A stretch of DNA of 64,000 nucleotides from a virus (IMGVR_UViG_3300024346_000025:7197-71196); one strand, 5' to 3'. Positions 9,709 through 29,127 are shown, numbered from the stretch's first letter. Program-made: numbers and translations. The notes: generated by a model not told the origin, from the sequence alone.

Positions 9709-9993
9709 ATGACTCACTTTATCCGAGACGTCTGGTCATTCTGGAAGGAAACTTGGCGCCTCGATAAAGTATTATTCTTTGCAGAGGCTATAGGCACATT
9801 CTGCGGCATGACTGCGGCAGCAACGATGGGACTGCAAACGCCCAACCCTGACCTACCAGTCATCTATGCATTTTATCTTGCAAGTGGCATGCTTTTAGCG
9901 TATACTAGTTATATACGTCGAGCATCTTGGATGGTAGTCCTCATGTCGTTTTATGTGCTGACAACAATTATTGGAATAGGAAAACTCTTTTAA
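9709..9993 (+). CDS. small membrane protein (94 aa)
   Basis: Hydrophobic segments AIGTFCGMTAAATMGL… and MVVLMSFYVLTTIIGIG; its stop TAA overlaps the polymerase ATG (TAATG). Confidence 0.45.
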   Translation: MTHFIRDVWSFWKETWRLDKVLFFAEAIGTFCGMTAAATMGLQTPNPDLPVIYAFYLASGMLLAYTSYIRRASWMVVLMSFYVLTTIIGIGKLF

Positions 9994-12962
9994 TGTATGT
10001 AGACGCGCTATTTTCAAAAAAGCAATCACAAGTAAAAGTGGTAGAACGTGTAGATGGTAAACGCATCTACAAAGACTATCCCGCCATATACGAATTCTAT
10101 GCAGAAGATCCTAAGGGTCGTTTCAAAGGTTTGCATGGCGAATCCCTAACTAAATTTTCATGCGGTTCTGATGCGGACTTCCGAAAGACAAAGCGCATGA
10201 ACAGCAACAAAAACCTTTTTGAGTCAGATGTAAAGCCCGTTAACAAGGTGTTAGAGAAGTATTATCAGCACACAAACCCTGCTGAGATGCACGTGGCCTT
10301 CTTCGATATTGAGACAGACTTCGACCGAGAGACAGGCTATAGCTCGCCTGAGGATGCCAGTAACGCTATCTTATCCGTGGCTGTTCATCTACAGTGGCTT
10401 GGTCAAACAGTTTGCTTGGCTGTGCCTCCCAAGGGTATGGACATGGAAGAGGCAAAGAAGATTGCTGACCGTGTTGGTAACACCATCATGTATTATGAGG
10501 AAGCCCATATGCTAGATGCGTTCCTCACACTAATTGAAGACGCTGATGTGTTGAGTGGTTGGTATAGTGAAGGATTTGATATCCCATACACCGTCAATCG
10601 CATTACGCGGATACTTGGTAAGGCTGAGACACGCAGGATGTGCTTGTGGAATGAACTGCCTGAGATGCGCATGGTGGCGCGCGGCGGTAAAGAATCACCC
10701 ACGTATGACTTGGTCGGTCGTGTTCACCTTGACTACTTGCAGCTATACAAAAAGTTTATTTACGAGCAGCGTCCAAGCTGGTCACTAGACGCAATTGCGG
10801 AACACGAACTGGGCGACTGTAAGGTGCCTTATGACGGTACACTAGACGCACTGTATAACAAGGACTTTGAGAAGTTCCTACGATACAACATACAAGATAC
10901 AGAACTGCTAGACAAGCTAGACAAAAAGTTGCAGTATATTGATTTGGCATGTAGCATTGCACACGGTAATTCGGTTGTCATCAAGGCAGCGATGGGCGCG
11001 GTAGCAGTTACAGAACAAGCGATTATTATAGAAGCGCATAACAGGAATGTAATGGTGCCAGATCGTGTGCGTGTTGGTGAAGATGATTTGCCAGCTGCGG
11101 GCGGATGGGTCCAGACCCCGAAAAAGGGATTGCACCGCTGGGTCGGTTCATCTGACTTGAACTCACTATACCCCTCAGTGTTACGCGCACTGAACATGAG
11201 TCCCGAGACCATTGTTGGTCAGGTTCGGCATGATGGCACTGACAAAGCTATACGAGATTTTATTGAGGCTGCGAAACGTAATTCATTTACGGAGTGGTGG
11301 AATGACCGCTTTAATACGTTGGAGATGGAACACTTCTTCAACAACGATAACGTGGAGCGTCTCACGCTAGACATGGCAGACGGGTCGTCGTGTGAGGTCA
11401 CTGGTGCTGAATTGCGCAAGCTAGTTTTTGAAAGTGGCAACCCATGGTGTATCTCAGCGAACGGTACGATCTTCCGCACAGACGTGGACGGCGTGATTCC
11501 TGGCTTGTTAGGTCGCTGGTATGCAGAGCGTAAAAAGCTACAAGCGATCAAGCGTGACTATGATGCGCTACAGGAAGGCGTACACGTTGACATACGCGCT
11601 GACGTTGCAAGCGACATTACGGAAAACTTAGAGCGCAAGCGTGAAGCTGGTGAGGTGTCGATTGTTAATGCGTTGGATCAGAATCAGGTGTTCAGTGTTG
11701 CGGCATTGAAGAAAAAGGCTGAGAGTAAGAATCCCGAAGACCTATATGCGTATATGCTCTCACACAACCTTGTGTTTGACAAGCAGGGTTTGGTTCACTA
11801 TGCAGATAAAGCGCAACTGAAAAAGATCATTGGCTTCTGGGATAAGAGGCAGTTGGTCAAAAAGATTAGCTTGAACTCATTGTATGGTGGGTTGTTGAAT
11901 GAGCATTGTAGGTTTTACGATCACAGGTTAGGTCAAAGCACAACGCTAACTGGTCGTACAATTGCACGACACATGTCTGCTAAGACGAATGAGATCATTG
12001 ATAATGTTTACGATCATACAGGGCGGTCTGTTTTGTACGGTGATACTGACTCAGTTTATTTTTCGGCGTATCCTATATTGAAGGATGAAATTGAAGCTGG
12101 CGAAATTGTTTGGAATAAAGAGAGTGTGGTTGAGCTTTACGATGTAATTGGTGAGCAGGTATCAGATTCATTCCCGCAGTTCCTCAGTGAGGCACTTAAC
12201 GTCCCGCAGAACAGAGGCAACGTTATGAAGTCGGGTCGGGAAATTGTAGCTGAGACTGCACTGTTTGTTACAAAGAAACGCTATGCTGCATTGGTATATG
12301 ATGAAGAAGGTAACAGACGAGACGTAGACGGCAAGGATGGTAAGCTAAAGATTACTGGACTTGATCTGCGCAGGTCAGACACACCTGTCATTGTGCAAAC
12401 ATTTTTGACTGAGGTGCTGAAAGATGTGCTTGCGCTTGTTGACGAAGAGACAATTATTGAGAAAGTGCGCAAGTTCAAACAGCAGTTTAGTGAGCTTCAT
12501 CCTTGGGAACAGGGGTCGCCGACGGCAGTAAATAATCTTACACGCTACACAGATGCGCTGGAGAAGTCCTTAGAGAACAAGTTTACGGAATTCAAAAAGC
12601 TATCTAAAACTGTAGCTAACACAGAGAAATTGTCGATTCCAGGTCATGTTATGGCAAGCATAAATTGGAATAGGCTGCGGGCTGTGCATAACGACTTGCA
12701 CACCGTAAAGATAGTTGACGGACATAAGGTGAACGTGTGTTGGTTGAAAGATGGCAACGACATGAGAATGTCATCTGTTGCGTATCCTGTAGAGGAACCT
12801 CATCTTCCTGACTGGTTCATCAATTTACCTTTTGACACAGACAGCATGATGCGGTCTAACGTAGATAAAAAGGTAGAAAATCTTCTTGGTGTGTTGGGTT
12901 GGGATTTGTCTAGAACAACACCCTCAGCCGCACACATGGAAACTTTGTTTGACTTTTCCTAG
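9993..12962 (+). CDS. family-B DNA polymerase (about 990 aa)
   Basis: Exo I FFDIETDFD near nt 10300; YGDTDS motif near nt 12040; KxxxNSxYG-like LNSLYG. Start placed at the ATG at 9993 (TAATG overlap), not the upstream ATG at 9927. Confidence 0.9.
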   Translation: MYVDALFSKKQSQVKVVERVDGKRIYKDYPAIYEFYAEDPKGRFKGLHGESLTKFSCGSDADFRKTKRMNSNKNLFESDVKPVNKVLEKYYQHTNPAEMHVAFFDIETDFDRETGYSSPEDASNAILSVAVHLQWLGQTVCLAVPPKGMDMEEAKKIADRVGNTIMYYEEAHMLDAFLTLIEDADVLSGWYSEGFDIPYTVNRITRILGKAETRRMCLWNELPEMRMVARGGKESPTYDLVGRVHLDYLQLYKKFIYEQRPSWSLDAIAEHELGDCKVPYDGTLDALYNKDFEKFLRYNIQDTELLDKLDKKLQYIDLACSIAHGNSVVIKAAMGAVAVTEQAIIIEAHNRNVMVPDRVRVGEDDLPAAGGWVQTPKKGLHRWVGSSDLNSLYPSVLRALNMSPETIVGQVRHDGTDKAIRDFIEAAKRNSFTEWWNDRFNTLEMEHFFNNDNVERLTLDMADGSSCEVTGAELRKLVFESGNPWCISANGTIFRTDVDGVIPGLLGRWYAERKKLQAIKRDYDALQEGVHVDIRADVASDITENLERKREAGEVSIVNALDQNQVFSVAALKKKAESKNPEDLYAYMLSHNLVFDKQGLVHYADKAQLKKIIGFWDKRQLVKKISLNSLYGGLLNEHCRFYDHRLGQSTTLTGRTIARHMSAKTNEIIDNVYDHTGRSVLYGDTDSVYFSAYPILKDEIEAGEIVWNKESVVELYDVIGEQVSDSFPQFLSEALNVPQNRGNVMKSGREIVAETALFVTKKRYAALVYDEEGNRRDVDGKDGKLKITGLDLRRSDTPVIVQTFLTEVLKDVLALVDEETIIEKVRKFKQQFSELHPWEQGSPTAVNNLTRYTDALEKSLENKFTEFKKLSKTVANTEKLSIPGHVMASINWNRLRAVHNDLHTVKIVDGHKVNVCWLKDGNDMRMSSVAYPVEEPHLPDWFINLPFDTDSMMRSNVDKKVENLLGVLGWDLSRTTPSAAHMETLFDFS

Positions 12963-12977
12963 AAAGTATGCTATAAT
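12949..12977 (+). promoter_or_regulatory. sigma70-type promoter TTGACT-17-TATAAT inside the polymerase 3' end
   Basis: TTGACT 12949-12954; TATAAT 12972-12977; drives the gene at 13004. Confidence 0.45.
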
Positions 12978-13003: not shown

Positions 13004-13750
13004 ATGCTATCGGAAGTATTGACTGATATCCTTGACCATACACATGGCTTAGGATTTATTGAAGTGTTAAAGATCACAAAGGATGCAGCCAACAAGACAA
13101 AGTTGGAAGCAATGCATCACATGCGAGCGGTCGTTATGTATGGCGAACTAAAGACGCCACTAAGTGAGATCACTGACACAATTGGCCTATCTCGGATGGC
13201 GGTGCTACAAGGCTACTTGAAGTTCCCACCGTTCACCGCAGATAAAGCAACCATCGAAATCATCTCACAACAGAGAGCCGGTGTAGATACGCCTACAGAA
13301 ATCCAATTCACCTCACCCGACGGACACGAAGCAAATTATCGTTTCATGCACAAGGATGCGGTAGACAGTGAGATCAAGGTGCCTACATTCAAAGGTGCAA
13401 CATGGGATGTAACTGTGGTGCCTACGGCTGAGAATTTGAAGGAGCTATCTTATTTCAATGGTGTGCTTGGCGCGTATGAGCCTACATTCCTTGCAAAGAC
13501 AGATGGCACCGAGCTTAATCTTTACATTGGTAGTGGTCCTACTGACCGCGCTACTGTGCCGTTTGCTAAGGGTGTGTCAGGTTCATTAGCTGGTAAGTTT
13601 AGTTTCCCGCTAATTGAGACGCTGGCTATCCTCAAGCTTGCTGCAAAGGCTGATAACTGTACGATGAGTTTTAGCGACAAAGGTGTGTTGCGTATTCTCT
13701 TGTCAACAGCCGTTTGTAACTACGAGTTTATTATACCAGCGAAGATGTAA
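13004..13750 (+). CDS. possible sliding-clamp (gp45-like) protein (248 aa)
   Basis: Sits directly after the polymerase; size and beta-rich composition fit a clamp; C-terminal …CNYEFIIPAKM resembles, from memory, the T4 gp45 …ANYVVALEA tail. Weak similarity only. Confidence 0.4.
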   Translation: MLSEVLTDILDHTHGLGFIEVLKITKDAANKTKLEAMHHMRAVVMYGELKTPLSEITDTIGLSRMAVLQGYLKFPPFTADKATIEIISQQRAGVDTPTEIQFTSPDGHEANYRFMHKDAVDSEIKVPTFKGATWDVTVVPTAENLKELSYFNGVLGAYEPTFLAKTDGTELNLYIGSGPTDRATVPFAKGVSGSLAGKFSFPLIETLAILKLAAKADNCTMSFSDKGVLRILLSTAVCNYEFIIPAKM

Positions 13751-14187
13751 TGGAAGTTATAGATAAATTTGAAGGTGACTTTGCATTTTTATCTAACTTC
13801 TATCCGGCTGAAATAATATACAAAGGGATATGCTATCCCACGGTAGAACATGCATATCAAGCGGCAAAATCAGATGATCCGTCGGTGCGCCGTTTGATGG
13901 CACATCACAGTAATCCTGCGTTAGCTAAAAAGGCTGGCAAAGTTATAAGACTGCGCGAAGACTGGGAAGATGCAAAACTGGGTATTATGAAGGAACTCGT
14001 CGCACAAAAGTTTCAAAACCCCGAACTGCGCGCAATGTTAGATTTAACAGCAGGTTACGAATTGGTTGAAGGTAATTGGTGGGGCGATACCTACTGGGGT
14101 GTTTGCCGTGGCGAAGGTCTCAATTACCTTGGAAATATATTAATGCAGATTAGAGACATAAAAGGAAACGACAATGAGAACAGTTAA
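13750..14187 (+). CDS. NADAR / YbiA-like (DUF1768) domain protein (145 aa)
   Basis: FAFLSNFYPAEIIYKGICYPTVEHAYQAAK plus …GxNxLGNILMQIR are the hallmark NADAR motifs. Confidence 0.75.
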   Translation: MEVIDKFEGDFAFLSNFYPAEIIYKGICYPTVEHAYQAAKSDDPSVRRLMAHHSNPALAKKAGKVIRLREDWEDAKLGIMKELVAQKFQNPELRAMLDLTAGYELVEGNWWGDTYWGVCRGEGLNYLGNILMQIRDIKGNDNENS

Positions 14188-14259: not shown

Positions 14260-15768
14260 ATGAAAGATTTATCAAAATTCAATCAAGACTACGCAACGTT
14301 CTTGCCTGCGGTCAGTGGATTTTACACAGAAATTTTAGGTAGAACCAAACACATAGACGGGTATGTTCCTGAGGGACGTGTGCCAGCAGGCTTTGAGAAT
14401 GGACTAGAGGGAATGAACTTTCTTGATCCAGATCAAGGATACTTCTTTTACGACAAGTGTCTTTACTCCGCTGGTCATGCGTATATGGACCTCGATCAAA
14501 CAGACAGACTAGAATGGATGATCCAGCATCGCGACCCGCGTGTTATGTGTCTTGGTGATTCGGGCGGATTCCAAATTGGTAAGGGCGTTATCAAATTTGA
14601 CTGGGAACGCTTTTACGAGAAGCCCGGTGATCTCGGTTATAAAGGCAAGGCAGATAAAGTTCGGCAAGAGATCCTAACGTGGCTAGAGCACACAGCAGAG
14701 TGGTCAATGATCTTAGACGTTCCGTCTTGGGCAACTACACGACCAGAGACAGGGCTGAAGAATTTTGAGGATTGCTTGAAGGCAACGCTACACAACAATG
14801 ATTATTTTGTAGAACACCGCGAAGGCAAGACTAAGTTCCTCAATGTGCTACAGGGTGTTCATCAGGAAGACGCTGACACATGGTATGAGGCGGTCAAAGA
14901 CTATCCGTTTGAAGGCTGGGCAATGGGCGGTAATACTTTGCGAGATGTGTCCATGTGTTTGCGCAGACTTATTATTATGCGTGACGAAGGCAAGCTTGAA
15001 GGCAAGGACTGGATGCACTTTTTGGGCACCTCACGTTTAGACTGGACAGTTATGTTGACAGCGTTGCAGCGTCAGTTACGCAAGCATTGTAACCCCAACC
15101 TCACAGTCAGTTTCGATTGTGCTAGTCCTTTTATTGCTACTGCTAACGGTCTTGTATACTCTCAAAACGTATTGACTAACGATAGGTTTAGTTATATAAT
15201 GGAAGGTTGCTTTGATGATAAATCATTAAAAGGCAGCACGATCCCGTTCCCGTTTGAGAGTGAGATCGGTAAGCGTCTTGTAGCTGGCGACATTTGCACA
15301 CTAGGTCCAGGTGACTTGAACAAGCGTGGTGATGTTGGTAAGACAAGCTGGGATAGTTTTAGTTACACTATGCTAATGGCGCACAATGTTTACGCACATA
15401 TACGGGCGGTACAGCGGTCAAACGCACTTGCAGACATTGAGTCAATTGAGTGTAACCCAGATTATTTGATGTGGCGTAAAGTAAAACGCAAAGACAAGTC
15501 TGCGGAACTTTCAAAATGGGTTCCACGTAACTTGCTTTACTTTAATAATTTTGTCGAGCGTCTATTTGATTCTCACAAGCCAATGACCATGATCGAAGAA
15601 GCTGGACCATTCTTACAAGACTTTAACAACAACCGAATTGAAGATGGTCATTCACCTCTGTTTAGGGACTTGTTCTCAGAAGAGGCTAGTGAGGCTGACG
15701 ATACAACGTATGATCGAGAGGATGATTCGTTGGATGGACTAGAAGAATTTATACGAAAGGAGACATAA
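14260..15768 (+). CDS. tRNA-guanine transglycosylase superfamily protein; DpdA-like DNA-guanine transglycosylase candidate (502 aa)
   Basis: LGDSGGFQIG matches the Tgt catalytic-Asp motif (DSGGFQ); VLQGVHQED resembles the Tgt GIVQGG region; sits beside QueD and QueE genes. No CxCxxC zinc motif seen. Confidence 0.55.
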   Translation: MKDLSKFNQDYATFLPAVSGFYTEILGRTKHIDGYVPEGRVPAGFENGLEGMNFLDPDQGYFFYDKCLYSAGHAYMDLDQTDRLEWMIQHRDPRVMCLGDSGGFQIGKGVIKFDWERFYEKPGDLGYKGKADKVRQEILTWLEHTAEWSMILDVPSWATTRPETGLKNFEDCLKATLHNNDYFVEHREGKTKFLNVLQGVHQEDADTWYEAVKDYPFEGWAMGGNTLRDVSMCLRRLIIMRDEGKLEGKDWMHFLGTSRLDWTVMLTALQRQLRKHCNPNLTVSFDCASPFIATANGLVYSQNVLTNDRFSYIMEGCFDDKSLKGSTIPFPFESEIGKRLVAGDICTLGPGDLNKRGDVGKTSWDSFSYTMLMAHNVYAHIRAVQRSNALADIESIECNPDYLMWRKVKRKDKSAELSKWVPRNLLYFNNFVERLFDSHKPMTMIEEAGPFLQDFNNNRIEDGHSPLFRDLFSEEASEADDTTYDREDDSLDGLEEFIRKET

Positions 15769-15983
15769 TGGATATCGAAAAGAAAATGCACCTAGAGATT
15801 AGTGGGTGGCAGGACTACGTAAAACTGGTTCGCACAAAGGCAACCGAAAAGTTTGAGAAAGGTATTCTCGACATTGGTATGGGAACGCACACCACATATT
15901 TCATCTTCACTTGCTATATGAATAGTGTGGAGCCGGAAGAGTGTGCTAAGATTTTGATGGACAAATTTCCCGAGGTCGAGTGA
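15768..15983 (+). CDS. hypothetical protein (71 aa)
   Basis: ATGA overlap with the upstream stop. Confidence 0.4.
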   Translation: MDIEKKMHLEISGWQDYVKLVRTKATEKFEKGILDIGMGTHTTYFIFTCYMNSVEPEECAKILMDKFPEVE

Positions 15984-16522
15984 TGGAACGCACATACGCA
16001 AACAGCAACGGCCCCACAACGCAAGCGACTTTCTTCTATGGCATCGAAGTAGAGAAGACACCTGCCTATGGTTTCCCTACGTTGTTTGTGGTTGGATTAC
16101 AACCAGTGGATCTTGTTTTACAGATGGCGCGCGCGAAAGCACAGCCGGAATGGGATAAGGGTAAGATCAAACACATTTATCTTGGAGCTAACCATAGCTT
16201 CAACCAAGATGAAGAATGGGCAACGCTGATTGATGCATTGTTACATGAGGGTTTTTGGGTAACGTTAGATTATCCTAGCCGTGTTCATAATTTTGTGATG
16301 CGCATACTCAATCAAGAAATGCGCCACAGTTGTTTTATTCCCATGATTTCTATTGAGATGCCAAACATTGAGGCGTTTAGTTATAATGCTGTGATAAAGA
16401 TTGATGATCAAGATATGGATTATTCCAACCCTGGTGTTTGGTGTCATCGTATACACAACTTAATGTCAGATGAAGCCTTTACTCATTGGAACGCATACAA
16501 AGATGATAAGTTAGCAAAATAG
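15980..16522 (+). CDS. hypothetical protein (180 aa)
   Basis: ORF in operon context between the dpdA-like gene and def; no recognisable motif. Not QueC (no SGGxDS) and not FolE. Confidence 0.5.
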   Translation: MMERTYANSNGPTTQATFFYGIEVEKTPAYGFPTLFVVGLQPVDLVLQMARAKAQPEWDKGKIKHIYLGANHSFNQDEEWATLIDALLHEGFWVTLDYPSRVHNFVMRILNQEMRHSCFIPMISIEMPNIEAFSYNAVIKIDDQDMDYSNPGVWCHRIHNLMSDEAFTHWNAYKDDKLAK

Positions 16523-17011
16523 ATGTATAAAATTCTTTATTGGCCAGATCAAAGGTTGCGGGACGTTGCTGATGAGGTGACGGATTTTGCTGCGGCTGAG
16601 GACATTATAGCGCGAATGTTTGAGACAATGTACGCTGACAAAGGTATCGGTCTTGCTGCTACGCAGGTCGGTATTCCCTTACGCATCTTTGTTATGGATA
16701 CGGGATTAGATAAAATTGCGTTTATAAACCCAAAGATAATTGAACGTAATGGTACGATAACTCAGATGGAAGGTTGTCTTAGTTTCCCTGGTATTTTTGT
16801 GCCAATTGAACGAGCTGAATCAATAACTGTTCAATATCAGCTATTGACATGTGAAACAATAGAGCGTATACTGTATGGTACAGAAGCACAATGTGTACAG
16901 CATGAGATAGATCATCTTAATGGAATTGTCTTTTTTGATTATCTCAAAACAACTAAGCGCATGATGGCTGAAAACAAATTACGCAAAAAGTTAAAGGCAT
17001 TAAAGAAATGA
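16523..17011 (+). CDS. def: peptide deformylase
   Basis: Three Def motifs: GIGLAATQ, EGCLSFPG and HEIDHLNG. Confidence 0.85.
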   Translation: MYKILYWPDQRLRDVADEVTDFAAAEDIIARMFETMYADKGIGLAATQVGIPLRIFVMDTGLDKIAFINPKIIERNGTITQMEGCLSFPGIFVPIERAESITVQYQLLTCETIERILYGTEAQCVQHEIDHLNGIVFFDYLKTTKRMMAENKLRKKLKALKK

Positions 17012-17550
17012 TTTTTAAGCGGGTATCGAAACAAAAAATCCGGGGCCAACGGTTTGATAAATTATTAGAGTGGCGGAGGACTTTTATAATTTGGCCGCGC
17101 CCTCTTGTACATTGGGGGCTGGCCAGTGAAGACTCATCAATAGAATGGGCGGTATTTCAGTTTGTAATGAAACGCAATACAAAATATGGTGTTGCCAAAG
17201 GCAATTATATTTCAACGCCATGGCCTTGGCGCAAGATATTTGAGTGGAGAATGGACGCCGAGTATACAACCGATAAACATCTTTTCCATGAACGACTAAA
17301 AGGTGGATCTGGGTCTTCTAACGATGATATGGAAGAAACTTCCCAGGTCATGTCTCATGTTGGAACTAGACCAATCAACGCTATCGCTGGTTCTACTTGG
17401 ATTGATACAACAACAGGTGATACATACATTTATGATGGCTACACATGGATTCGGCAACTATCTTATAAGCAACAAGCAACCGCGAATAAAATGATCGCTG
17501 CTATCAAACAGAAACACGCACAAAGGAGACCTAATGCGAGTACAAAATAA
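17008..17550 (+). CDS. hypothetical protein (180 aa)
   Basis: ORF overlapping the neighbouring genes by 4 nt. Confidence 0.45.
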   Translation: MIFKRVSKQKIRGQRFDKLLEWRRTFIIWPRPLVHWGLASEDSSIEWAVFQFVMKRNTKYGVAKGNYISTPWPWRKIFEWRMDAEYTTDKHLFHERLKGGSGSSNDDMEETSQVMSHVGTRPINAIAGSTWIDTTTGDTYIYDGYTWIRQLSYKQQATANKMIAAIKQKHAQRRPNASTK

Positions 17551-17920
17551 AAAGTTTATTTGGGTAACATTCCAGTGTGAGGGCATACATAAATATCCGG
17601 ACGCCCCCGAAGGTGTAGAATTTTTGCGTTATCCGCACAGGCACATGTTCCATTTCAAGGTTGAGCTGGAAGTATTCCATGATGATAGAGATGTGGAATT
17701 CATTTTGTTCAAGCGCGAGCTAGAAACATTGTATAGAGAGAGTACATTGCAGCTAGATAATAAGAGTTGCGAAATGATGGCTGAGGATTTGAACGAATAC
17801 ATAAGCCGCGTTTGGCCAGGTCGTGATCTCATTATTACAGTGAGCGAAGATGGTGAGAATGGCTGTACGTGTTACTATGCTAAAGACGAAGAAAAAATCC
17901 CACGCTTATATGAGAAATAA
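17534..17920 (+). CDS. queD: 6-carboxy-5,6,7,8-tetrahydropterin synthase (QueD / PTPS family)
   Basis: FQCEGIHKYPDAPEGVEFLRYPHRHMFHF aligns with E. coli QueD [24 protein letters not shown]; C-terminal ENGCTCYY resembles ETCTAGCIY. Confidence 0.65.
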   Translation: MRVQNKKFIWVTFQCEGIHKYPDAPEGVEFLRYPHRHMFHFKVELEVFHDDRDVEFILFKRELETLYRESTLQLDNKSCEMMAEDLNEYISRVWPGRDLIITVSEDGENGCTCYYAKDEEKIPRLYEK

Positions 17921-17923
17921 ATT

Positions 17924-19036
17924 ATGAAAGTATATGTGATAGACCTTGAGTCCGTACCAACGCGATACACTTGCGAGTGGAAAGGACATATCCCTGCACT
18001 TCTAAGCGAAGCTGCTACCCATAGGGATAGACTCGACGTAGAGATTGTAAATATCTCCGGCGGAGAAGAACAGTTGAAGGCCACGCCAGGCGCCTTCCTG
18101 AACTTTGCGCAAACCAACGTGTATAAGAATAATCAACTCACGCAGGTTGCAAAGCTATTCTCCGAGGGCAAGGTCTTGCCTGGCGACCAATTCATTTTTA
18201 CTGATGCATGGAACCCAGCTATTATACAGCTAAAGTACATGAGCCAGTTGCTAGACATTCCGGTTGTTATTCATGCGCTATGGCATGCTGGCAGTTACGA
18301 TCCGCAAGACTTTTTAGGTCGTCTTATAAAGGACAAACGCTGGACTAATAATTTTGAGAAATCAATTTGGCATGCTGTAGACTACAATTGGTTTGCAACA
18401 CAATTCCACATCGACATGTTTTTTGAAAATGTTTTTGGGTGTTTTGGGTTGCAATTAGATGCAGCGGAATGGCAGCGCAAATCGCTACGTACTGGCTGGC
18501 CAATGGAGTATATGACAAAGACGTTAGATCATTACAAAGGTCTAAAAAAGCGCAACCTCATATTGTTCCCACATAGGCTTGCCCCAGAGAAGCAACCCGA
18601 AATGTTCCGCGATCTTGCAAAGTCTATGCCACAGTACGAATGGATTGTGTGTCAAGACGAAGAGCTGACAAAGAATGAATACCACAAGCTACTAGGTGAA
18701 GCAAAAATTGTTTTGTCGTTGAACCTACAAGAGACGCTAGGCATTAGTTGTTTTGAAGGTGCTATTGTTGATGCACACCCGCTAGTCCCTGATAGACTCA
18801 GTTACATGGAAATGTATAATGAGCGTTGGAAATATCCTGAGGAGTGGGCAACACCTGAGATGTATCCTAACGGTGGTAAAGAATTGCTTATGGAAAAGAT
18901 TGAACACTTTATGGAGAACTATGGTCGCTACGTTGATGAGGTTAGTGAACTAGCGAAGCATTTACAGAAAGACTTTTTTGCTGCTGGGCCACTACTTGAC
19001 AAGGTCCTCGGTCCGGTACCGAAAGGAGACAAGTGA
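17924..19036 (+). CDS. GT-B fold glycosyltransferase (370 aa)
   Basis: FPHRLAPEKQPEMF resembles the GT4 E-x7-E / RLxxEKG region; Rossmann-like N-terminal half. Confidence 0.45.
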   Translation: MKVYVIDLESVPTRYTCEWKGHIPALLSEAATHRDRLDVEIVNISGGEEQLKATPGAFLNFAQTNVYKNNQLTQVAKLFSEGKVLPGDQFIFTDAWNPAIIQLKYMSQLLDIPVVIHALWHAGSYDPQDFLGRLIKDKRWTNNFEKSIWHAVDYNWFATQFHIDMFFENVFGCFGLQLDAAEWQRKSLRTGWPMEYMTKTLDHYKGLKKRNLILFPHRLAPEKQPEMFRDLAKSMPQYEWIVCQDEELTKNEYHKLLGEAKIVLSLNLQETLGISCFEGAIVDAHPLVPDRLSYMEMYNERWKYPEEWATPEMYPNGGKELLMEKIEHFMENYGRYVDEVSELAKHLQKDFFAAGPLLDKVLGPVPKGDK

Positions 19037-19368
19037 GCGAGCAAGACGAATTTGAGTTTGAGTGGGTAGACAAAAATGGGTCCACTAACTTTGATCCGAA
19101 TTTTACATATGGGTCAGGCATTTATGCAGTTTCTGGTTTTACCAATTGTTCTACAAGCAATTCTACAATCTCATCGTATTTTTCGTCGTGGTCAGATCCA
19201 CTTCCCGCAGCACTAGATAAAATAACAAAACACCTAGAAGCGATCAACGACCGTCTTGCATTGTTAGAGGAACTTGACGACAAAGAGCAACACAATATGT
19301 TACGAGAAGCATACCGTAAATACAAAATGGTCGAAAGGCTAATTGGAAAGGATAAGACTGATGAGTGA
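19033..19368 (+). CDS. hypothetical protein (111 aa)
   Basis: C-terminus …LREAYRKYKMVERLIGKD is paralogous to the next ORF. Confidence 0.45.
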   Translation: MSEQDEFEFEWVDKNGSTNFDPNFTYGSGIYAVSGFTNCSTSNSTISSYFSSWSDPLPAALDKITKHLEAINDRLALLEELDDKEQHNMLREAYRKYKMVERLIGKDKTDE

Positions 19369-19600
19369 TATAGATGATATTTGTGATACTGTTGACAGCT
19401 TAGAGCGTGTTGTTGAACGCATGGCTCAAGCCGAAAAACACACAGCAATGGAGCTTGCAAAGTTACAGGATCAGATTTATTATATGTGTGAAATGCTTAG
19501 TCTTGCTACTGATCCTGACCGAGCAAAGGATAATGCGCTTCTAAAAGAAGCTTACGACAAATATATGTTTACAGTACATTTGGTACTAGGGAAGGAATAA
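19343..19600 (+). CDS. hypothetical protein (85 aa; start could be 19361)
   Basis: C-terminus …LKEAYDKYMFTVHLVLGKE is paralogous to the previous ORF. Confidence 0.45.
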   Translation: MERIRLMSDIDDICDTVDSLERVVERMAQAEKHTAMELAKLQDQIYYMCEMLSLATDPDRAKDNALLKEAYDKYMFTVHLVLGKE

Positions 19601-20055
19601 TGGATAAGAAATATATTACTTGGACCGAAGTTGAAACATTGGTTAGCCATTTGTGCGAGCATGTTGAATCTAGCGGATTCAAACCTGACGTTGTATTAGG
19701 TATTAGCCGCGGCGGCCTTATACCATCGGTCATGCTTAGTCATTGCTGGGACATTCCTATGATCCCTTTACGTTGGTCTACACGCGATCATCTTTACACA
19801 GATGCAGACACAGTGGCTGAAATAATAAAGGAAGTAGAAGATGGTAAGCGGTTGCTGATTGTAGATGATATTTGCGATAGCGGTGTTACGCTAACAGAGC
19901 TTAACGATCACTTTGCAAATATGCTACCTAAGATGAGAGACAATATCAAATTTGCAACATTGCATCAACGCGCTGGATCAAAGCTAGTCCCTGACTTTAT
20001 TGGCGGATATATTACTGACGGAATGTGGATTGTCTATCCTTACGAGGAGTTTTAG
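19600..20055 (+). CDS. gpt: xanthine-guanine phosphoribosyltransferase-like PRTase (151 aa)
   Basis: KYITWTEV, ISRGGL and PRPP-binding LLIVDDICDSGVTL, with C-terminal WIVYPYE. Co-linear with E. coli Gpt (KYIVTWD, VSRGGL, IVIDDLVDTGGT, WIEQPWD). Confidence 0.75.
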   Translation: MDKKYITWTEVETLVSHLCEHVESSGFKPDVVLGISRGGLIPSVMLSHCWDIPMIPLRWSTRDHLYTDADTVAEIIKEVEDGKRLLIVDDICDSGVTLTELNDHFANMLPKMRDNIKFATLHQRAGSKLVPDFIGGYITDGMWIVYPYEEF

Positions 20056-20056
20056 G

Positions 20057-20203
20057 ATGGGTTTTTCTTGGCCTGCGTTCTTTGGTTGGGTAGTTACAGC
20101 AATATCTGCTGCTGGCGTCATATTCGCAATGTATAGCTTTCTTAGCCCGTTATATAAGACGAAACCAAAAGATAATTCAGGACTTGACAAAAAGCCCAAA
20201 TAG
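20057..20203 (+). CDS. small membrane peptide (48 aa)
   Basis: MGFSWPAFFGWVVTAISAAGVIFAMY…; AGGAG lies 7 nt upstream of the internal ATG of track ORF 20000..20203. Confidence 0.3.
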   Translation: MGFSWPAFFGWVVTAISAAGVIFAMYSFLSPLYKTKPKDNSGLDKKPK

Positions 20204-20212
20204 TAGTATAAT
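20184..20212 (+). promoter_or_regulatory. sigma70-type promoter TTGACA-17-TATAAT
   Basis: TTGACA 20184-20189; TATAAT 20207-20212; the queE ATG lies at 20219 (very short leader) or 20228. Confidence 0.55.
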
Positions 20213-20218
20213 AGTAGG

Positions 20219-21130
20219 ATGCCAAACATGAACAAACATAAATATAGCGAGATTTTTACATCTATTCAAGGTGAAGGAGAATACACGGGTACGCCAACAG
20301 TATGGCTACGCTGGTTTCTCTGTAACTTACAATGCAGCGGCTTTGGTCAAAAAGTGCCAGAAGACCCCTCAACACACGTTTTGCCTTATGAGGAATTCGA
20401 TATAAGCAATATAAAGCGGATTGAGGATTTGCCAGTTTGGAGTACAGGTTGTGATTCAAGCTATAGCTGGGCTAAAAAGTACCGCCACTTGTGCCCCGAA
20501 GGCACAGCAGAGGAAATTGCTGATAAGCTTGAGGAGCAGTTAGTTAGTATGCACGATAAGCATCCTACGTTCTTTAACGAACACAGCTTGCAGTACACAC
20601 ACTTTTGTATGACGGGTGGCGAGCCGATGATGAAGCGGACGCAAACTGCACAAATAGAATTGATGAATGAATTCCTACGGCGCAATAACGTCCCCATGTT
20701 TATTACAGTTGAGACTAATGGCACACAACCGCTTGCAGAAGACATGGCGCAAACTATTATGCAATACGTGTACTCTGGTGGTGAATGGTTTTGGTCGGTG
20801 TCGCCCAAGCTACTGTACACAAGCGGCGAGCAACCTGCGAAAGCAATTAAGCCCGAGGTCGTAAAATCGTATCAAGACATAAGCCCTCGCGGTCAGCTAA
20901 AATTTGTTGTGAGCAACAGGAAGGAAGCGTGGGATGAGCTTGAGGCAACGGTGAAATTATTTAGAGACGCGGGCGTTGTATGGCCGGTGTGGATCATGCC
21001 TGTAGGTGCTACAGTAGAAGCGCAAAGTGACGATGATATGCGGGCAGTGGTCGAAGAAACAATAAGGCGCGGCTATAAGGTGGCGGCGCGAGTACATTGC
21101 TATATATGGGGCAACAAAATTGGAACGTAA
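20219..21130 (+). CDS. queE: 7-carboxy-7-deazaguanine synthase (QueE, radical SAM)
   Basis: EIFTSIQGEGEYTGTPTVWLRWFLCNLQC resembles E. coli QueE ([32 protein letters not shown]); TGGEPMM SAM motif. The Cys cluster CNLQC is non-canonical. Confidence 0.65.
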   Translation: MPNMNKHKYSEIFTSIQGEGEYTGTPTVWLRWFLCNLQCSGFGQKVPEDPSTHVLPYEEFDISNIKRIEDLPVWSTGCDSSYSWAKKYRHLCPEGTAEEIADKLEEQLVSMHDKHPTFFNEHSLQYTHFCMTGGEPMMKRTQTAQIELMNEFLRRNNVPMFITVETNGTQPLAEDMAQTIMQYVYSGGEWFWSVSPKLLYTSGEQPAKAIKPEVVKSYQDISPRGQLKFVVSNRKEAWDELEATVKLFRDAGVVWPVWIMPVGATVEAQSDDDMRAVVEETIRRGYKVAARVHCYIWGNKIGT

Positions 21131-21140: not shown

Positions 21141-21917
21141 ATGAGTAAGAAAAAGAGATTGCTACCCTTCGGTTGGCTCCCTGGACATTGGGGACTAGCA
21201 GGTAAGACACGGGAACGCGCCCAAGCGGAATATGAATTTGCGCAAGGCTATGAGCTAGATGCCATGTTAATAAGAATTGACAATCCCGATGATTCTAGTT
21301 TTGCAAAGGCTTTAGTTGAGTTACGACTTAGGTACGGTCTCATCACAGAACAAGAATGTGATTATTCGTTGCATGATTTAACGTATTTTCTTGGCTCCGA
21401 AGAAGCCAAACTATCTCTTCTCAAGCTAGATAAGAAATATAATAAGATTGAGGAAGAAGATTACCAGCGCAAGCTTGCAGAGCTTACAATAACAGATGAG
21501 AAGTTATTGAAGATGCGTTTGCTGGAACTGGATAAAAAGTACGAGAAGATTACACACGACGAGTTTGAGAAAAAGAAGGCAACGCTCCTTGAAGAGCCGT
21601 ATGTCCGCATTGCAAAAATTGAGACTGATCCTACAAACCCAGCGTATGGTGGAATTATAATGGATTGGAACAAGGCGTTTGTGCAGCAATTGGAAGACGC
21701 TGGCTATGGTCCAGATCCCGATGAGGCGCGTATTGTTGAACAGTGGTTCAATGAACTATGTAGGAATATTGCGACAGAAGCGTTTGACGGCGTCGGTGAT
21801 TTTAATGAGAAAATGGCTGCGGGTAATGTCCCACACCACAGACGCAATTTACACGATGACGTTATACTAAAGAAGCCAACACAACCAAAACAGGATGATA
21901 CCAGTGCAGAAGAATAA
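21141..21917 (+). CDS. hypothetical protein (about 258 aa)
   Basis: Start placed at the internal ATG with an AAGGA RBS. Confidence 0.45.
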   Translation: MSKKKRLLPFGWLPGHWGLAGKTRERAQAEYEFAQGYELDAMLIRIDNPDDSSFAKALVELRLRYGLITEQECDYSLHDLTYFLGSEEAKLSLLKLDKKYNKIEEEDYQRKLAELTITDEKLLKMRLLELDKKYEKITHDEFEKKKATLLEEPYVRIAKIETDPTNPAYGGIIMDWNKAFVQQLEDAGYGPDPDEARIVEQWFNELCRNIATEAFDGVGDFNEKMAAGNVPHHRRNLHDDVILKKPTQPKQDDTSAEE

Positions 21918-22929
21918 GTATATCTTAGTAGACGCGATGAATATGTTTCATCGTGCAAAACACGTAGTCCACAATGGGCCCATTGATATGCGCATTGGTA
22001 TGAGCTTGCATATCACGTTTAATGCTTTACGCAAAGCGTGGCGCGATCTCGGAGGCAATCATGTTGTGTTTTGCTTAGAGGGTCGAAGCTGGCGTAAGAC
22101 TGCGTGTGAGACATACAAGGCTAATCGACTTGCTGCACAACTAAAGCGTACCAAGCGCGAAGCAGAAGACGATGATTTGTTTTTTGAAGCGTTTAATGAT
22201 TTTAGCGACTTCTTCTCAAACCAAACTAATTGCACTGTATTACAGTGTCCAATTGGCGAAGCAGATGATCTCATTGCAACGTGGATTGACTTACACCCAG
22301 ATGAAGATCATGTGATCGTTAGCTCGGACACCGACTTCTATCAGTTGCTTGCAAAAAATGTAGAAATCTACAACGGCATCACAAACAACCTCATTACACT
22401 TGAGGGATTCTTTGACGACAAGGGCAAGCCTGTAAAAGATAAAAAGACCGGCCTACCTAAGAAACTGGAAGATCCTGAATGGCTGTTGTTTGAAAAATGT
22501 ATACGCGGCGACAAGAGCGACAACGTGTTCCCAGCGTATCCAGGTGCAAGGAAGAAGGGTAGCAAGAACAAAACTGGCATGATGGAAGCGTTTGCAGATC
22601 GTAATAGCGGTAGCTTTGATTGGAATAATTTTATGCTACAGACATGGGAAGACCACGAAGGCAATGTGCATCGTGTGCTAGATCGGTATATGGAAAACGT
22701 GTCATTAATTGATTTACATGCCCAGCCTGACGAGGTCAAGGTTGAGTTGATCGAATGTATCCTGCGCGAGGTTGATCGACCAGTAGTGCAGGGTGTTGGT
22801 GTTCATTTCCTGCGGTTCTGTGGTAAATGGGATCTTGGTAACATCAGCAAGTATCCAGATGAATTTGCACGGATGCTAAACACACGCTATAAGGGTCACC
22901 TTATTGAGCAGACAGAGGAGGTAAGTTAA
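21895..22929 (+). CDS. 5'-3' exonuclease / flap endonuclease (RNase H-like, T4 rnh / PolI 5'-exo family)
   Basis: LVDAMNMFHRA (compare LIDGNSLAYRA), IGEADDLIATW (compare GYEADDIIGT) and SSDTDFYQLL (compare SGDKDLLQL). Confidence 0.75.
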   Translation: MIPVQKNKYILVDAMNMFHRAKHVVHNGPIDMRIGMSLHITFNALRKAWRDLGGNHVVFCLEGRSWRKTACETYKANRLAAQLKRTKREAEDDDLFFEAFNDFSDFFSNQTNCTVLQCPIGEADDLIATWIDLHPDEDHVIVSSDTDFYQLLAKNVEIYNGITNNLITLEGFFDDKGKPVKDKKTGLPKKLEDPEWLLFEKCIRGDKSDNVFPAYPGARKKGSKNKTGMMEAFADRNSGSFDWNNFMLQTWEDHEGNVHRVLDRYMENVSLIDLHAQPDEVKVELIECILREVDRPVVQGVGVHFLRFCGKWDLGNISKYPDEFARMLNTRYKGHLIEQTEEVS

Positions 22930-25733: not shown

Positions 25734-25762
25734 TTGACTTTTAGGACATAAGATAGTATAAT
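25734..25762 (+). promoter_or_regulatory. sigma70-type promoter TTGACT-17-TATAAT
   Basis: TTGACT 25734-25739; TATAAT 25757-25762. Confidence 0.6.
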
Positions 25763-29098: not shown

Positions 29099-29127
29099 TT
29101 GACTTTCCCCTTCACCTTTGCTATAAT
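29099..29127 (+). promoter_or_regulatory. sigma70-type promoter TTGACT-17-TATAAT
   Basis: TTGACT 29099-29104; TATAAT 29122-29127. Confidence 0.6.

What the first reader, a model, noticed from the sequence alone, without database searches (positions are those of the whole stretch)
14260..21130. Candidate 7-deazaguanine DNA-modification cluster: DpdA-like transglycosylase, QueD, QueE, Gpt-like PRTase and a glycosyltransferase; no QueC or FolE in the window
- **Genes on one strand:**
  - TGT-superfamily protein with the DSGGFQ catalytic motif (DpdA-like)
  - peptide deformylase
  - QueD
  - a GT-B glycosyltransferase
  - a Gpt-like phosphoribosyltransferase
  - QueE, with a non-canonical Cys motif and its own promoter
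- **Known biology.** In phages, DpdA together with preQ0-pathway enzymes replaces G in DNA with 7-deazaguanine derivatives to evade restriction.
- **What is unusual.** QueC (ATP-dependent nitrile formation) and FolE are not in the window. QueD plus QueE alone yields 7-carboxy-7-deazaguanine (CDG), so the inserted base could be CDG or a new derivative.
- **Co-located enzymes.** Co-location of a purine PRTase and a glycosyltransferase is unusual. They may add a nucleotide-level salvage or sugar-decoration step.
- **Unassigned ORFs.** Two ORFs in the cluster (15980..16522, 17008..17550) have no assignable function and could be the missing tailoring enzymes.
Basis: partly seen in the sequence, partly recalled or inferred. 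Interest (0 to 1): 0.8.

Follow-up and report, generated by a model that had tools for sequence, protein, structure and literature searches.

The report
Phage 7-deazaguanine DNA modification gene cluster
This phage gene cluster most likely replaces guanine in the phage's own DNA with a 7-deazaguanine base to escape host restriction enzymes; such systems are known, but here the base-swapping enzyme belongs to a large unannotated family and three conserved helper genes have no assigned role.

Summary
One key assignment is wrong.

- **"QueD" (128 aa).** This is an orthologue of DpdL, the proposed 7-carboxy-7-deazaguanine (CDG) decarboxylase. It carries LRYPHRHMF where QueD has CxxxHGH.
- **Other assignments.** QueE-like (atypical CX3C-X38-C), a Gpt-like phosphoribosyltransferase and a GT4-type glycosyltransferase are supported.
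- **Missing genes.** QueC, FolE and canonical QueD are absent from the window. The cultured relative PA5oct encodes FolE and QueD 58 kb from its cluster.
- **Conservation.** Across 82 related loci the conserved set is the transglycosylase, the 180-aa ORF at 15980-16522, DpdL, the glycosyltransferase, FolE, the phosphoribosyltransferase and QueE. QueC occurs only in Vibrio phage 2.275.O.
- **Not conserved.** The ORF at 17008-17550, the deformylase and NADAR are lineage-specific inserts.

The predicted base is 7-deazaguanine or a derivative, not CDG. This is a new variant of a known kind.

The parts
14260..15768 (+). 502-aa TGT-superfamily transglycosylase, DpdA-like. Candidate catalytic residues are D100 (in DSGGFQ), D153 (in LDVP) and D286 (in SFDCASP).
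   Evidence: - AlphaFold2 model pLDDT 87.8.
- hhalign of the 112-member family profile against VH7D gp012 (likely DpdA2): 96.9%, E 1.8e-10.
- D286 is invariant, and D100 and D153 are at least 90% conserved, in 112 diverse members.
- D100 and D153 align to D102 and D156 of Z. mobilis TGT.
- No hit in Pfam, PHROG, NCBIfam or PADLOC.
15980..16522 (+). 180-aa conserved partner of unknown function, with no conserved cysteines.
   Evidence: - Present downstream of the transglycosylase (usually the next conserved gene) in 75 of 82 loci, and in 37 of 39 loci with at least 9.5 kb of flank.
- Among cultured phages, homologues occur only in PA5oct-like phages and ACP17, where it sits next to the TGT-like gene.
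- AlphaFold2 pLDDT 90.7.
- No sequence relation to QueE. No Pfam, PHROG or PDB sequence hit.
17534..17920 (+). 128-aa DpdL orthologue: a T-fold QueD paralogue and proposed CDG decarboxylase. It is not QueD.
   Evidence: - LRYPHRHMF at residues 31-39 matches the DpdL signature LxxxHRHxF (PMC10516641).
- 47% identity to ACP17 gp125 and 39% to phiST CGPG_00067.
- The motif is conserved in about 75 homologues.
- Cys27 of E. coli QueD aligns to Phe.
- No PF01242 hit, matching published DpdLs and unlike real QueD.
17924..19036 (+). 370-aa GT-B glycosyltransferase of GT4 type. Its acceptor is unknown.
   Evidence: - EX7E motif at residues 270-278. E278, R218 and K223 are invariant.
- 5 of 31 family members hit Pfam Glycos_transf_1, best 3.7e-6.
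- PDB profile hits to glycosyltransferases 8xsg and 6eji, E 0.1-0.3.
- Homologues lie beside or near DpdL in PA5oct, ACP17, Phosso, BUDD and BCSR5.
19600..20055 (+). 151-aa Gpt-like 6-oxopurine phosphoribosyltransferase.
   Evidence: - PF00156, 4.3e-15. NF006613 xanthine PRTase, 4.8e-15, below cut-off.
- Found in 30 of 39 loci with enough flank.
- Among cultured phages, its homologues are mostly in deazaguanine phages: the phiST group, Flavobacterium immuto_2-6A, BUCT-ZZ01 and PA5oct-like phages. It also occurs in two Brevundimonas phages and one faecal phage.
20184..20212 (+). Perfect sigma-70-type promoter consensus, TTGACA-17-TATAAT, just upstream of the QueE-like gene.
   Evidence: - 12 of 12 consensus positions match.
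- The window holds 11 sites within one mismatch against 0.55 expected, all on the + strand and mostly just upstream of genes.
- This is a consensus match only; no transcription data exist.
20219..21130 (+). 303-aa QueE-like radical SAM enzyme (CDG synthase) with an insert in the cluster-binding loop. The true start is probably the ATG at 20228.
   Evidence: - phrog_2076 'QueE-like', 3.7e-54, full length.
- PDB QueEs are the only sequence hits.
- C35, C39 and C78 are invariant in 29 homologues.
- GGEP at 133-136 and ETNG at 165-168.
- 42% identity to the QueE-like proteins of KVP40, nt-1 and VH7D, and 35% to PA5oct QueE.
- NCBIfam QueE models match only the N-terminal 30 residues, below their cut-offs.
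13004..13750 (+). 248-aa conserved upstream neighbour of unknown function. Listed for context; no evidence that it belongs to the pathway.
   Evidence: - phrog_12062, unknown function, 6.9e-42.
- Lies upstream of the transglycosylase (adjacent in most loci) in 80 of 82 loci.
- The PA5oct homologue is annotated as a virion protein from mass spectrometry.
16523..17550 (+). Peptide deformylase (16523-17011) and an orphan 180-aa ORF (17008-17550). Both are lineage-specific inserts and not part of the conserved system.
   Evidence: - The deformylase occurs in only 2 of 82 loci, and the orphan ORF in none.
- Both are absent from the PA5oct and ACP17 clusters.

Best explanation
The cluster is the core of a DpdA/DpdL-type system that modifies phage DNA with a 7-deazaguanine base.

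**Pathway, step by step**
1. GTP is converted to CPH4 by FolE and QueD. Neither is in the window. They are presumably encoded elsewhere in the phage genome or supplied by the host. *Inferred.*
2. The QueE-like radical SAM enzyme (20219-21130) converts CPH4 to 7-carboxy-7-deazaguanine (CDG). *Inferred from homology.*
3. The DpdL orthologue (17534-17920) removes the carboxyl group to give 7-deazaguanine. *This is the published proposal for DpdL and has never been shown biochemically.*
4. The 502-aa TGT-fold enzyme (14260-15768) exchanges guanine in double-stranded phage DNA for that base by the TGT/DpdA double-displacement mechanism. D286 would act as nucleophile and D100 as general acid/base. 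*Fold, motifs and gene association are shown here; activity is inferred.*
5. The modified DNA resists host restriction enzymes.

**Helper genes (all inferred)**
- The Gpt-like phosphoribosyltransferase most plausibly returns the guanine released by each exchange to GMP. That feeds GTP, the pathway's own precursor.
- The GT4 glycosyltransferase and the 180-aa protein are conserved members whose steps are unknown. They may be the 'other unknown enzymes' invoked when DpdL plus DpdA failed to make dDG in E. coli.
For: **Transglycosylase**
- The fold is closest to the DNA preQ0 insertase DpdA.
- The broadened family profile matches VH7D gp012 at 96.9%, running from the DSGG motif to the SxD motif. 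That gene lies within the FolE/QueF/QueC cluster, so it is the likely DpdA2. VH7D DpdA2 inserts preQ1, preQ0 and CDG into DNA (PMC10516641).
- All three aspartates that define TGT and DpdA are conserved.

**Gene association in independent phages**
- Vibrio phage 2.275.O: the family member lies two genes upstream of QueF, in a cluster that also holds a YhhQ-like transporter, QueC, Gat and FolE.
- ACP17: QueD, FolE, the 180-aa homologue, a TGT-like gene, the glycosyltransferase, DpdL and QueE in a row.
- PA5oct: the transglycosylase, glycosyltransferase, DpdL, phosphoribosyltransferase and QueE in the same order as here.
- 82 metagenomic loci share the order. QueC is absent from all but Vibrio phage 2.275.O.

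**DpdL**
- Orthology and motif are established.
- phiST, which encodes DpdL and no QueC, carries dDG in its DNA (PMC10516641).

**Experimental hint from a relative**
- PA5oct is hit by nucleases that sense modified G (PMC12191111).
- PA5oct encodes FolE and QueD 58 kb from its cluster.
Against: - No activity has been measured for any protein of this family. DpdL's decarboxylase activity is unproven, and the published attempt with phiST and ACP17 genes in E. coli gave no dDG.
- QueD and FolE are not in the window, so the supply of CPH4 is assumed.
- The structural Zn motif CxCxxC...H of TGT and bacterial DpdA is not kept. Only C346 and H375 remain.
- D286 was mapped to the nucleophile by motif and profile alignment, not by superposition.
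- The family shows no significant similarity to phiST DpdA3. Similarity to DpdA2 is visible only at profile level.
- A conserved glycosyltransferase, a phosphoribosyltransferase and a 180-aa protein are not needed for a simple 'make 7-deazaguanine and insert it' route. phiST manages without detectable homologues of the glycosyltransferase and the 180-aa protein, so the real product may differ.
Confidence: 0.6

Rival explanations
1. Hypermodified product. The inserted base is not plain 7-deazaguanine. It is a glycosylated or otherwise extended 7-deazaguanine made with the GT4 enzyme and the 180-aa protein, acting either on the free base before insertion or on the DNA afterwards.
For: - The glycosyltransferase lies between the transglycosylase and DpdL, or next to DpdL, in PA5oct, ACP17 and Phosso, and near DpdL in BUDD and BCSR5.
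- It is present in 31 of 39 relatives with enough flank.
- phiST, whose DNA carries plain dDG, has no detectable homologue of the glycosyltransferase or the 180-aa protein.
- DpdL plus DpdA alone gave no dDG in E. coli.
- There is precedent for a glycosyltransferase acting on a free 7-deazapurine base: HuiG in huimycin biosynthesis.
- PA5oct is restricted by END nucleases, which sense hypermodified DNA.
Against: - 7-Deazaguanine has no obvious acceptor apart from the N2 amine.
- No glycosylated deazaguanine has been reported in DNA.
- The glycosyltransferase assignment is only moderately supported, and its acceptor could be unrelated to DNA.
- Several DpdL phages lack it.
Confidence: 0.2
2. 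Nucleotide-pool route. The phosphoribosyltransferase attaches CDG or 7-deazaguanine to PRPP. The nucleotide is decarboxylated, phosphorylated and reduced to a 7-deaza-dGTP, which the phage polymerase incorporates during replication. The TGT-like enzyme plays only a secondary or different role.
For: - In tubercidin biosynthesis, TubE is a CDG-specific phosphoribosyltransferase and decarboxylation follows at the nucleotide level (PMC6112128).
- Among cultured phages, the phosphoribosyltransferase homologues are found mainly in deazaguanine phages. These include phiST and immuto_2-6A, which are reported to be fully substituted.
- phiST and PA5oct also encode MazG-like pyrophosphatases.
- The cluster sits among replication genes: DNA polymerase and a 5'-3' exonuclease.
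Against: - A transglycosylase is the most conserved gene of the module (82 of 82 loci) and would be redundant under this route.
- No kinase, reductase or dGTPase lies in the cluster, and no MazG homologue is found in the window.
- The enzyme resembles the housekeeping guanine/xanthine salvage enzyme Gpt.
- The published view is that all known DNA deazaguanines are inserted after replication.
Confidence: 0.12
3. QueD plus QueE make CDG, and CDG itself or a new amide derivative is inserted into DNA.
For: - QueC is absent.
- VH7D DpdA2 can insert CDG at low efficiency, and dCDG occurs in one archaeal virus.
Against: - The supposed QueD lacks the catalytic cysteine and is a DpdL orthologue.
- The presence of a proposed CDG decarboxylase argues that CDG is an intermediate, not the product.
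Confidence: 0.05
4. tRNA target. The TGT-like enzyme modifies tRNA in a queuosine- or archaeosine-like manner to tune translation during infection, and does not act on DNA.
For: The fold is shared with tRNA-guanine transglycosylases. Large phages often carry translation-related genes, here a peptide deformylase and RtcB.
Against: - The best structural match is the DNA enzyme DpdA.
- The profile homology is to the likely phage DpdA2.
- The N-terminal and Zn sub-domain features of tRNA TGTs are not conserved.
- PA5oct DNA itself is restriction-resistant at G-containing sites.
- The window has no tRNA genes.
Confidence: 0.03

Closest known systems
DpdL-containing deazaguanine clusters of Acidovorax phage ACP17 and Cellulophaga phage phiST (Cui et al. 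2023, PMC10516641)
   Same: - FolE/QueD/QueE-type pathway without QueC, plus DpdL and a TGT-like DpdA.
- The window's DpdL is 47% identical to that of ACP17 and 39% to that of phiST.
- ACP17 also has homologues of the glycosyltransferase (36%) and the 180-aa protein (31-33%) next to its TGT-like gene.
- phiST also encodes a homologous phosphoribosyltransferase (35%).
   Different: - The transglycosylase here (502 aa) is not detectably similar to phiST DpdA3. It matches ACP17 gp123 only at profile level, 31 bits.
- FolE and QueD are missing from the window.
- QueE carries a roughly 38-residue insert in the Fe-S loop, whereas ACP17 QueE is canonical.
- The published work assigned no role to the glycosyltransferase, the phosphoribosyltransferase or the 180-aa protein.
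Pseudomonas jumbo phage PA5oct cluster EST35_0316-0322 (Wroclawvirus)
   Same: - Orthologous module in the same order: transglycosylase 40%, glycosyltransferase 43%, DpdL 52%, phosphoribosyltransferase 30%, QueE 35%. The flanking 248-aa protein and 5'-3' exonuclease are also shared.
- PA5oct DNA behaves as G-modified (PMC12191111).
   Different: - PA5oct keeps its 180-aa homologue 25 kb away (gp121) and FolE/QueD 58 kb away.
- It lacks the deformylase, NADAR and the orphan ORF.
- In GenBank the transglycosylase is annotated 'hypothetical protein'. The preprint that inferred a modified G named only QueE and a PTPS.
DpdA2 of Vibrio phages VH7D and nt-1 (DNA transglycosylase, experimentally active)
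   Same: - TGT-like core with DSGGxQ, a second Asp, QG, HxLG and SxD motifs. hhalign gives 96.9% over 182 columns.
- Equivalent position in the gene cluster: VH7D has FolE, gp012, QueF, QueC. Vibrio phage 2.275.O has a member of the 502-aa family two genes upstream of QueF, with QueC and FolE further along.
   Different: - BLAST finds no significant similarity.
- The N- and C-terminal regions differ.
- DpdA2 phages have QueC and QueF and insert preQ1 or preQ0 at low levels. Most members of this family accompany DpdL and lack QueC.
Bacterial DpdA of the Dpd restriction-modification system (PDB 7UI4)
   Different: - 15% identity.
- No DpdB ATPase partner or DpdC in the window.
- The Zn site is not conserved.
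- The substrate is probably not preQ0.
Tubercidin (tub) and huimycin (hui) deazapurine pathways of actinomycetes
   Same: The tub pathway combines GCH I, CPH4 synthase, CDG synthase, a phosphoribosyltransferase and a decarboxylase without QueC. HuiG is a glycosyltransferase acting on a deazapurine base.
   Different: - These pathways make free nucleoside antibiotics, not DNA bases, and contain no transglycosylase.
- The tub decarboxylase is of the UbiD type, not a T-fold protein.
- Homology between those enzymes and the phage enzymes was not tested here.

Membership tests
TGT superfamily (tRNA/DNA-guanine transglycosylases) | TIM-barrel TGT fold | tested here: met
TGT superfamily (tRNA/DNA-guanine transglycosylases) | General acid/base Asp (TGT D102, DpdA D95) and base-recognition Asp (TGT D156, DpdA D130) | tested here: met
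   D100 in DSGGFQ and D153 in LDVP align to D102 and D156 of Z. mobilis TGT in the profile alignment. Both are at least 90% conserved in 112 diverse members.
TGT superfamily (tRNA/DNA-guanine transglycosylases) | Nucleophile Asp (TGT D280, DpdA D256) | tested here: inconclusive
   D286 (SFDCASP) is invariant in 112 members and aligns to the SYD motif of VH7D gp012 and ACP17 gp123. No residue-level superposition on TGT or DpdA could be made.
TGT superfamily (tRNA/DNA-guanine transglycosylases) | Structural Zn site CxCxxC...H | tested here: not met
   Only C346 (GDxC) and H375 are conserved; H375 aligns to TGT H349. The CxCxxC motif is absent.
TGT superfamily (tRNA/DNA-guanine transglycosylases) | Match to Pfam PF01702 (TGT) | tested here: not met
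   No Pfam hit at E<=0.01. The same holds for published phiST DpdA3, ACP17 gp123 and PA5oct 0316 at E<=1, so this test does not exclude divergent DpdAs.
DpdA (DNA 7-deazaguanine transglycosylase), any subfamily | Guanine exchange on DNA | not testable with these tools
   Needs a biochemical or genetic assay.
DpdA (DNA 7-deazaguanine transglycosylase), any subfamily | Genetic linkage to deazaguanine biosynthesis genes in a phage | tested here: met
   Linked to QueE, DpdL and FolE in 82 loci and in PA5oct. Linked to QueF, QueC, Gat and FolE in Vibrio phage 2.275.O.
DpdA2 subfamily | Sequence homology to nt-1 or VH7D DpdA2 | tested here: inconclusive
   hhalign of the family profile against VH7D gp012 gives 96.9%, E 1.8e-10, over the catalytic core only. 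BLAST is not significant. That gp012 is the published DpdA2 is inferred from its position in the gene cluster.
DpdA3 subfamily | Sequence homology to phiST CGPG_00065 | tested here: not met
   hhalign probability 6%. HMM E-value 0.39. No tblastn hit to Cellulophaga or Campylobacter phages.
DpdA4 subfamily | Match to PF20314 (DUF6610) | tested here: not met
   No Pfam hit.
DpdL (proposed CDG decarboxylase) | LxxxHRHxF in place of the QueD motif CxxxHGH | tested here: met
   LRYPHRHMF at residues 31-39. Conserved in about 75 homologues. The motif definition comes from PMC10516641.
DpdL (proposed CDG decarboxylase) | Homology to phiST CGPG_00067 and ACP17 gp125 | tested here: met
   tblastn 2e-13 (39%) and 3e-25 (47%). 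Local BLAST 7e-20 and 1e-32.
DpdL (proposed CDG decarboxylase) | CDG decarboxylase activity | not testable with these tools
   Unproven even for the founding members.
QueD (CPH4 synthase, PTPS-I) | CxxxHGH motif with catalytic Cys, and a PF01242 match | tested here: not met
   The Cys aligns to Phe. No PF01242 hit, whereas PA5oct QueD gp230 scores 2.1e-30.
QueE (CDG synthase, radical SAM) | Three-Cys [4Fe-4S] motif, SAM-binding GGEP, and full-length similarity to QueE | tested here: met
   C35, C39 and C78 are invariant, with atypical CX3C-X38-C spacing. GGEP and ETNG are present. phrog_2076 matches at full length, 3.7e-54. The only PDB sequence hits are QueEs.
QueE (CDG synthase, radical SAM) | NCBIfam QueE equivalog score cut-offs | tested here: not met
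   Best 40.6 bits against a cut-off of 260; only the N-terminal 30 residues match.
Gpt-type xanthine-guanine phosphoribosyltransferase | PRTase domain and the Gpt equivalog score | tested here: inconclusive
   PF00156 at 4.3e-15 is above cut-off. NF006613 scores 55.5 bits against a cut-off of 138. Substrate was not tested.
GT4 glycosyltransferases (GT-B fold) | EX7E motif and a Glycos_transf_1 match | tested here: inconclusive
   EX7E at 270-278 with invariant E278. 5 of 31 family members hit PF00534 (best 3.7e-6), but the window protein itself does not. No structure was predicted.

The most novel reading that the evidence does not exclude
The 502-aa family is an unnamed, very abundant DpdA subfamily, found mainly in large phages. 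It has at least 7300 clusters at 90% identity and 1240 at 50%. Together with DpdL, a GT4 glycosyltransferase, a cysteine-less 180-aa protein and a Gpt-like phosphoribosyltransferase, it would install a 7-deazaguanine hypermodification not yet described in DNA, for example a glycosylated 7-deazaguanine. The phosphoribosyltransferase would recycle the displaced guanine back into the pathway.
Probability: 0.2. Interest if true: 0.8.

Novelty: new variant of a known kind. Interest (0 to 1): 0.58.

Why it matters
**An unrecognised enzyme family.** DpdA has been called the signature protein for deazaguanine DNA (PMC10516641). No Pfam, PHROG, NCBIfam or PADLOC model recognises this family, and every cultured phage carrying it annotates it as 'hypothetical protein'. 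Yet it has thousands of metagenomic members, many on contigs of 100-400 kb. Surveys of phage DNA modification therefore probably miss a large group of modified, restriction-resistant phages. That group includes PA5oct-like therapeutic candidates.

**Candidates for the missing dDG factors.** Three co-conserved genes have no assigned role: the glycosyltransferase, the 180-aa protein and the phosphoribosyltransferase. They are concrete candidates for the factors that prevented reconstitution of dDG synthesis.

**Directly testable.** PA5oct and ACP17 are cultured, so the predictions can be checked experimentally.

Tried and rejected
**Searches that found nothing**
- Megablast of the region against 50,697 phage records gave no match.
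- Pfam, PHROG, NCBIfam and PADLOC on the 502-aa protein gave nothing.
- A profile of close homologues against PDB sequences gave nothing. A broader profile gave only E~1.5 hits to TGT, useful for residue alignment only.
- The profile of the 180-aa family against PDB sequences gave nothing.

**Ideas tested and dropped**
- *The 128-aa protein is QueD.* Rejected on motif, Pfam behaviour and orthology to DpdL.
- *The 248-aa upstream neighbour is a sliding clamp.* I assumed this at first. No evidence supports it (phrog_12062, unknown function), so the label is withdrawn.
- *The family belongs to DpdA3.* Not supported.

**Could not be done**
It was redone with database homologues.
- The supplementary tables of PMC10516641 are not held. 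I could not confirm which ACP17 gene the authors called dpdA.

Full report
**Observation.** The whole left half of the window (1-35.8 kb) is + strand and encodes replication and metabolic genes. These include a family-B DNA polymerase at 9927-12962 and a 5'-3' exonuclease at 21895-22929. The right half is − strand and holds very large ORFs of 4005 and 1460 aa. No near-identical phage record exists.

**The 502-aa protein.**
- *Family size.* No Pfam, PHROG, NCBIfam or PADLOC model detects it. It nevertheless has more than 7300 homologues of about 500 aa in metagenomes, all unnamed, and 1240 clusters at 50% identity.
- *Catalytic residues.* In 112 diverse members D286 is invariant, and D100, S101, G102, G103, Q105 and D153 are at least 90% conserved. 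The profile aligns DSGGfQ to TGT D102-SGGYQ and LDvP to FD156EC. These are the aspartates shown to be essential in DpdA and TGT (PMC10164549).
- *Zn site.* The CxCxxC zinc motif is not kept.
- *Relation to DpdA2.* The broadened profile matches VH7D gp012 with hhalign probability 96.9%. That gene is the TGT-like gene within the FolE/QueF/QueC cluster of VH7D. It is therefore most likely the DpdA2 that Cui et al. showed to insert preQ1, preQ0 and CDG into DNA.
- *Relation to other subfamilies.* The family profile also matches ACP17 gp123 at 31 bits. It does not match phiST DpdA3.

**The 'QueD' is DpdL.**
- The 128-aa protein gives no PTPS Pfam hit. PA5oct QueD scores 2e-30 under the same test, while the published DpdLs of phiST and ACP17 also give none.
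- A weak alignment to E. coli QueD places Phe where the catalytic Cys27 sits.
- Its sequence LRYPHRHMF is the LxxxHRHxF signature that Cui et al. use to separate DpdL, the proposed CDG decarboxylase, from QueD with its CxxxHGH.
- It is 47% identical to ACP17 gp125 and 39% to phiST CGPG_00067. The motif holds in about 75 homologues.
- No canonical QueD, FolE or QueC is found anywhere in the window.

**Other genes.**
- *QueE-like (303 aa).* It matches phrog_2076 over its full length. C35, C39 and C78 are invariant, and a variable insert of about 38 residues separates the second and third cysteines. ACP17 QueE has the canonical CxxxCxxC.
- *Promoter.* A perfect sigma-70 consensus precedes the gene. 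Such sites are twentyfold enriched in the window, and all lie on the + strand.
- *Phosphoribosyltransferase (151 aa).* It is Gpt-like.
- *Glycosyltransferase (370 aa).* It has an EX7E motif and family-level Glycos_transf_1 hits. No structure was predicted for it.

**Conservation.** Eighty metagenomic viral loci carrying the transglycosylase, plus the PA5oct and 2.275.O loci, were compared. The recurring order is: 248-aa protein, transglycosylase, 180-aa ORF, DpdL, glycosyltransferase, FolE, phosphoribosyltransferase, QueE, 5'-3' exonuclease. Counts among the 39 loci with at least 9.5 kb downstream:

| Gene | Loci out of 39 |
|---|---|
| DpdL | 39 |
| 180-aa ORF | 37 |
| QueE | 33 |
| FolE | 32 |
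| Glycosyltransferase | 31 |
| Phosphoribosyltransferase | 30 |
| QueC | 0 |
| Deformylase | 2 |
| NADAR | 1 |
| ORF 17008-17550 | 0 |

These loci belong to one lineage, so they are not independent. Independent support comes from four cultured phages:
- **ACP17**, a T4-like phage: QueD, FolE, the 180-aa homologue, a TGT-like gene, the glycosyltransferase, DpdL and QueE in a row.
- **PA5oct**, a jumbo phage with the same module. Its FolE, two QueD-like genes and a MazG lie 58 kb away, and its 180-aa homologue 25 kb away.
- **Phosso**: DpdL and the glycosyltransferase are adjacent while the transglycosylase lies elsewhere.
- **Vibrio phage 2.275.O**: a family member lies two genes upstream of QueF, in a cluster that also holds a YhhQ-like transporter, QueC, Gat and FolE.

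**Experimental link.** A 2025 preprint reports that PA5oct DNA resists several restriction enzymes in a pattern that suggests a modified G. PA5oct is also targeted by nucleases that sense modified G. The authors named only QueE and a PTPS, not a transglycosylase (PMC12191111). The orthologous gene EST35_0316 is the obvious candidate.

**Mechanism.**
- *Main route.* CPH4, made by enzymes outside the window, is converted to CDG by QueE. DpdL would convert CDG to 7-deazaguanine, a step that is proposed but unproven. The DpdA-like enzyme then exchanges guanine in DNA for that base.
- *Phosphoribosyltransferase.* Among cultured phages its homologues occur mostly in deazaguanine phages: the phiST group, immuto_2-6A, BUCT-ZZ01 and PA5oct-like phages. 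I infer that it recycles the displaced guanine into GTP, the pathway's precursor.
- *Alternative for the phosphoribosyltransferase.* It could activate CDG or 7-deazaguanine for a replicative route. The precedent is the CDG-specific TubE of tubercidin biosynthesis.

**Verdict.** Four corrections apply:
- DpdL, not QueD.
- The predicted base is 7-deazaguanine or a derivative, not CDG.
- Lack of QueC is typical of DpdL phages.
- One of the two unassigned ORFs is a conserved member and the other is an insert.

What is new is an abundant, unrecognised DpdA-like family and three co-conserved helper genes with no assigned role.

Noticed in passing
window 38980-50997 (-) and 51013-55395 (-): Two giant ORFs of 4005 aa and 1460 aa sit on the minus strand among other large minus-strand ORFs. 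They are presumably virion or tail proteins of a large phage.
   Followed up: no
window 9373-9401, 12949-12977, 25734-25762, 26170-26198, 29099-29127, 61950-61978 and others: There are eleven sigma-70 consensus sites within one mismatch against 0.55 expected by chance. All are on the + strand and most lie just upstream of genes. The phage probably relies on host sigma-70 RNA polymerase for these genes.
   Followed up: partly
window 29149-30402 (+): A full-length RtcB RNA ligase (PF01139, 1.5e-129). No tRNA gene occurs in the window. It may serve in tRNA repair against host anticodon nucleases.
   Followed up: no
window 26231-27451 and 27475-28743 (+): A MoxR-like AAA ATPase is followed by a DUF2201 metallopeptidase/VWA protein, a conserved pair of unknown role in phages.
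   Followed up: no
window 23620-24705 (+): A trypsin-like serine protease with a C-terminal PDZ domain (HtrA/DegP-like) and a hydrophobic N-terminus that suggests secretion.
   Followed up: no
window 13750-14187 and 16523-17011 (+): A NADAR domain protein and a peptide deformylase are inserted into the modification cluster. They occur only in this phage and its two closest relatives, L004 and L005.
   Followed up: partly
window 19033-19368 and 19343-19600 (+): Two small tandem ORFs (111 and 85 aa) between the glycosyltransferase and the phosphoribosyltransferase share an LL(K/R)EAY(D/R)KY motif and look like paralogues. PA5oct 0319 is weakly similar (E 0.004).
   Followed up: no
window 20057-20203 (+): A small ORF of about 48 aa with one hydrophobic helix (MGFSWPAFFGWVVTAISAAGVIFAMY...) and a Shine-Dalgarno-like AGGA overlaps the 3' end of the phosphoribosyltransferase gene. 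The QueE promoter lies inside it.
   Followed up: no
window 8793-9368 (+): A cytidylyltransferase-like protein (phrog_3041, 2.4e-44) lies upstream of the DNA polymerase. PA5oct has a 'cytidyltransferase' in the equivalent place.
   Followed up: no
L086 8502-8972 (PA5oct gp226): PA5oct encodes a second QueD-like protein with CSRIHGY in place of CxxxHGH, in addition to canonical QueD gp230 and the DpdL orthologue. That makes three T-fold paralogues in one genome.
   Followed up: partly
window 31245-32774 and 33412-33972 (+): An SPFH/Band 7 domain protein (509 aa) and a free-standing HNH endonuclease.
   Followed up: no
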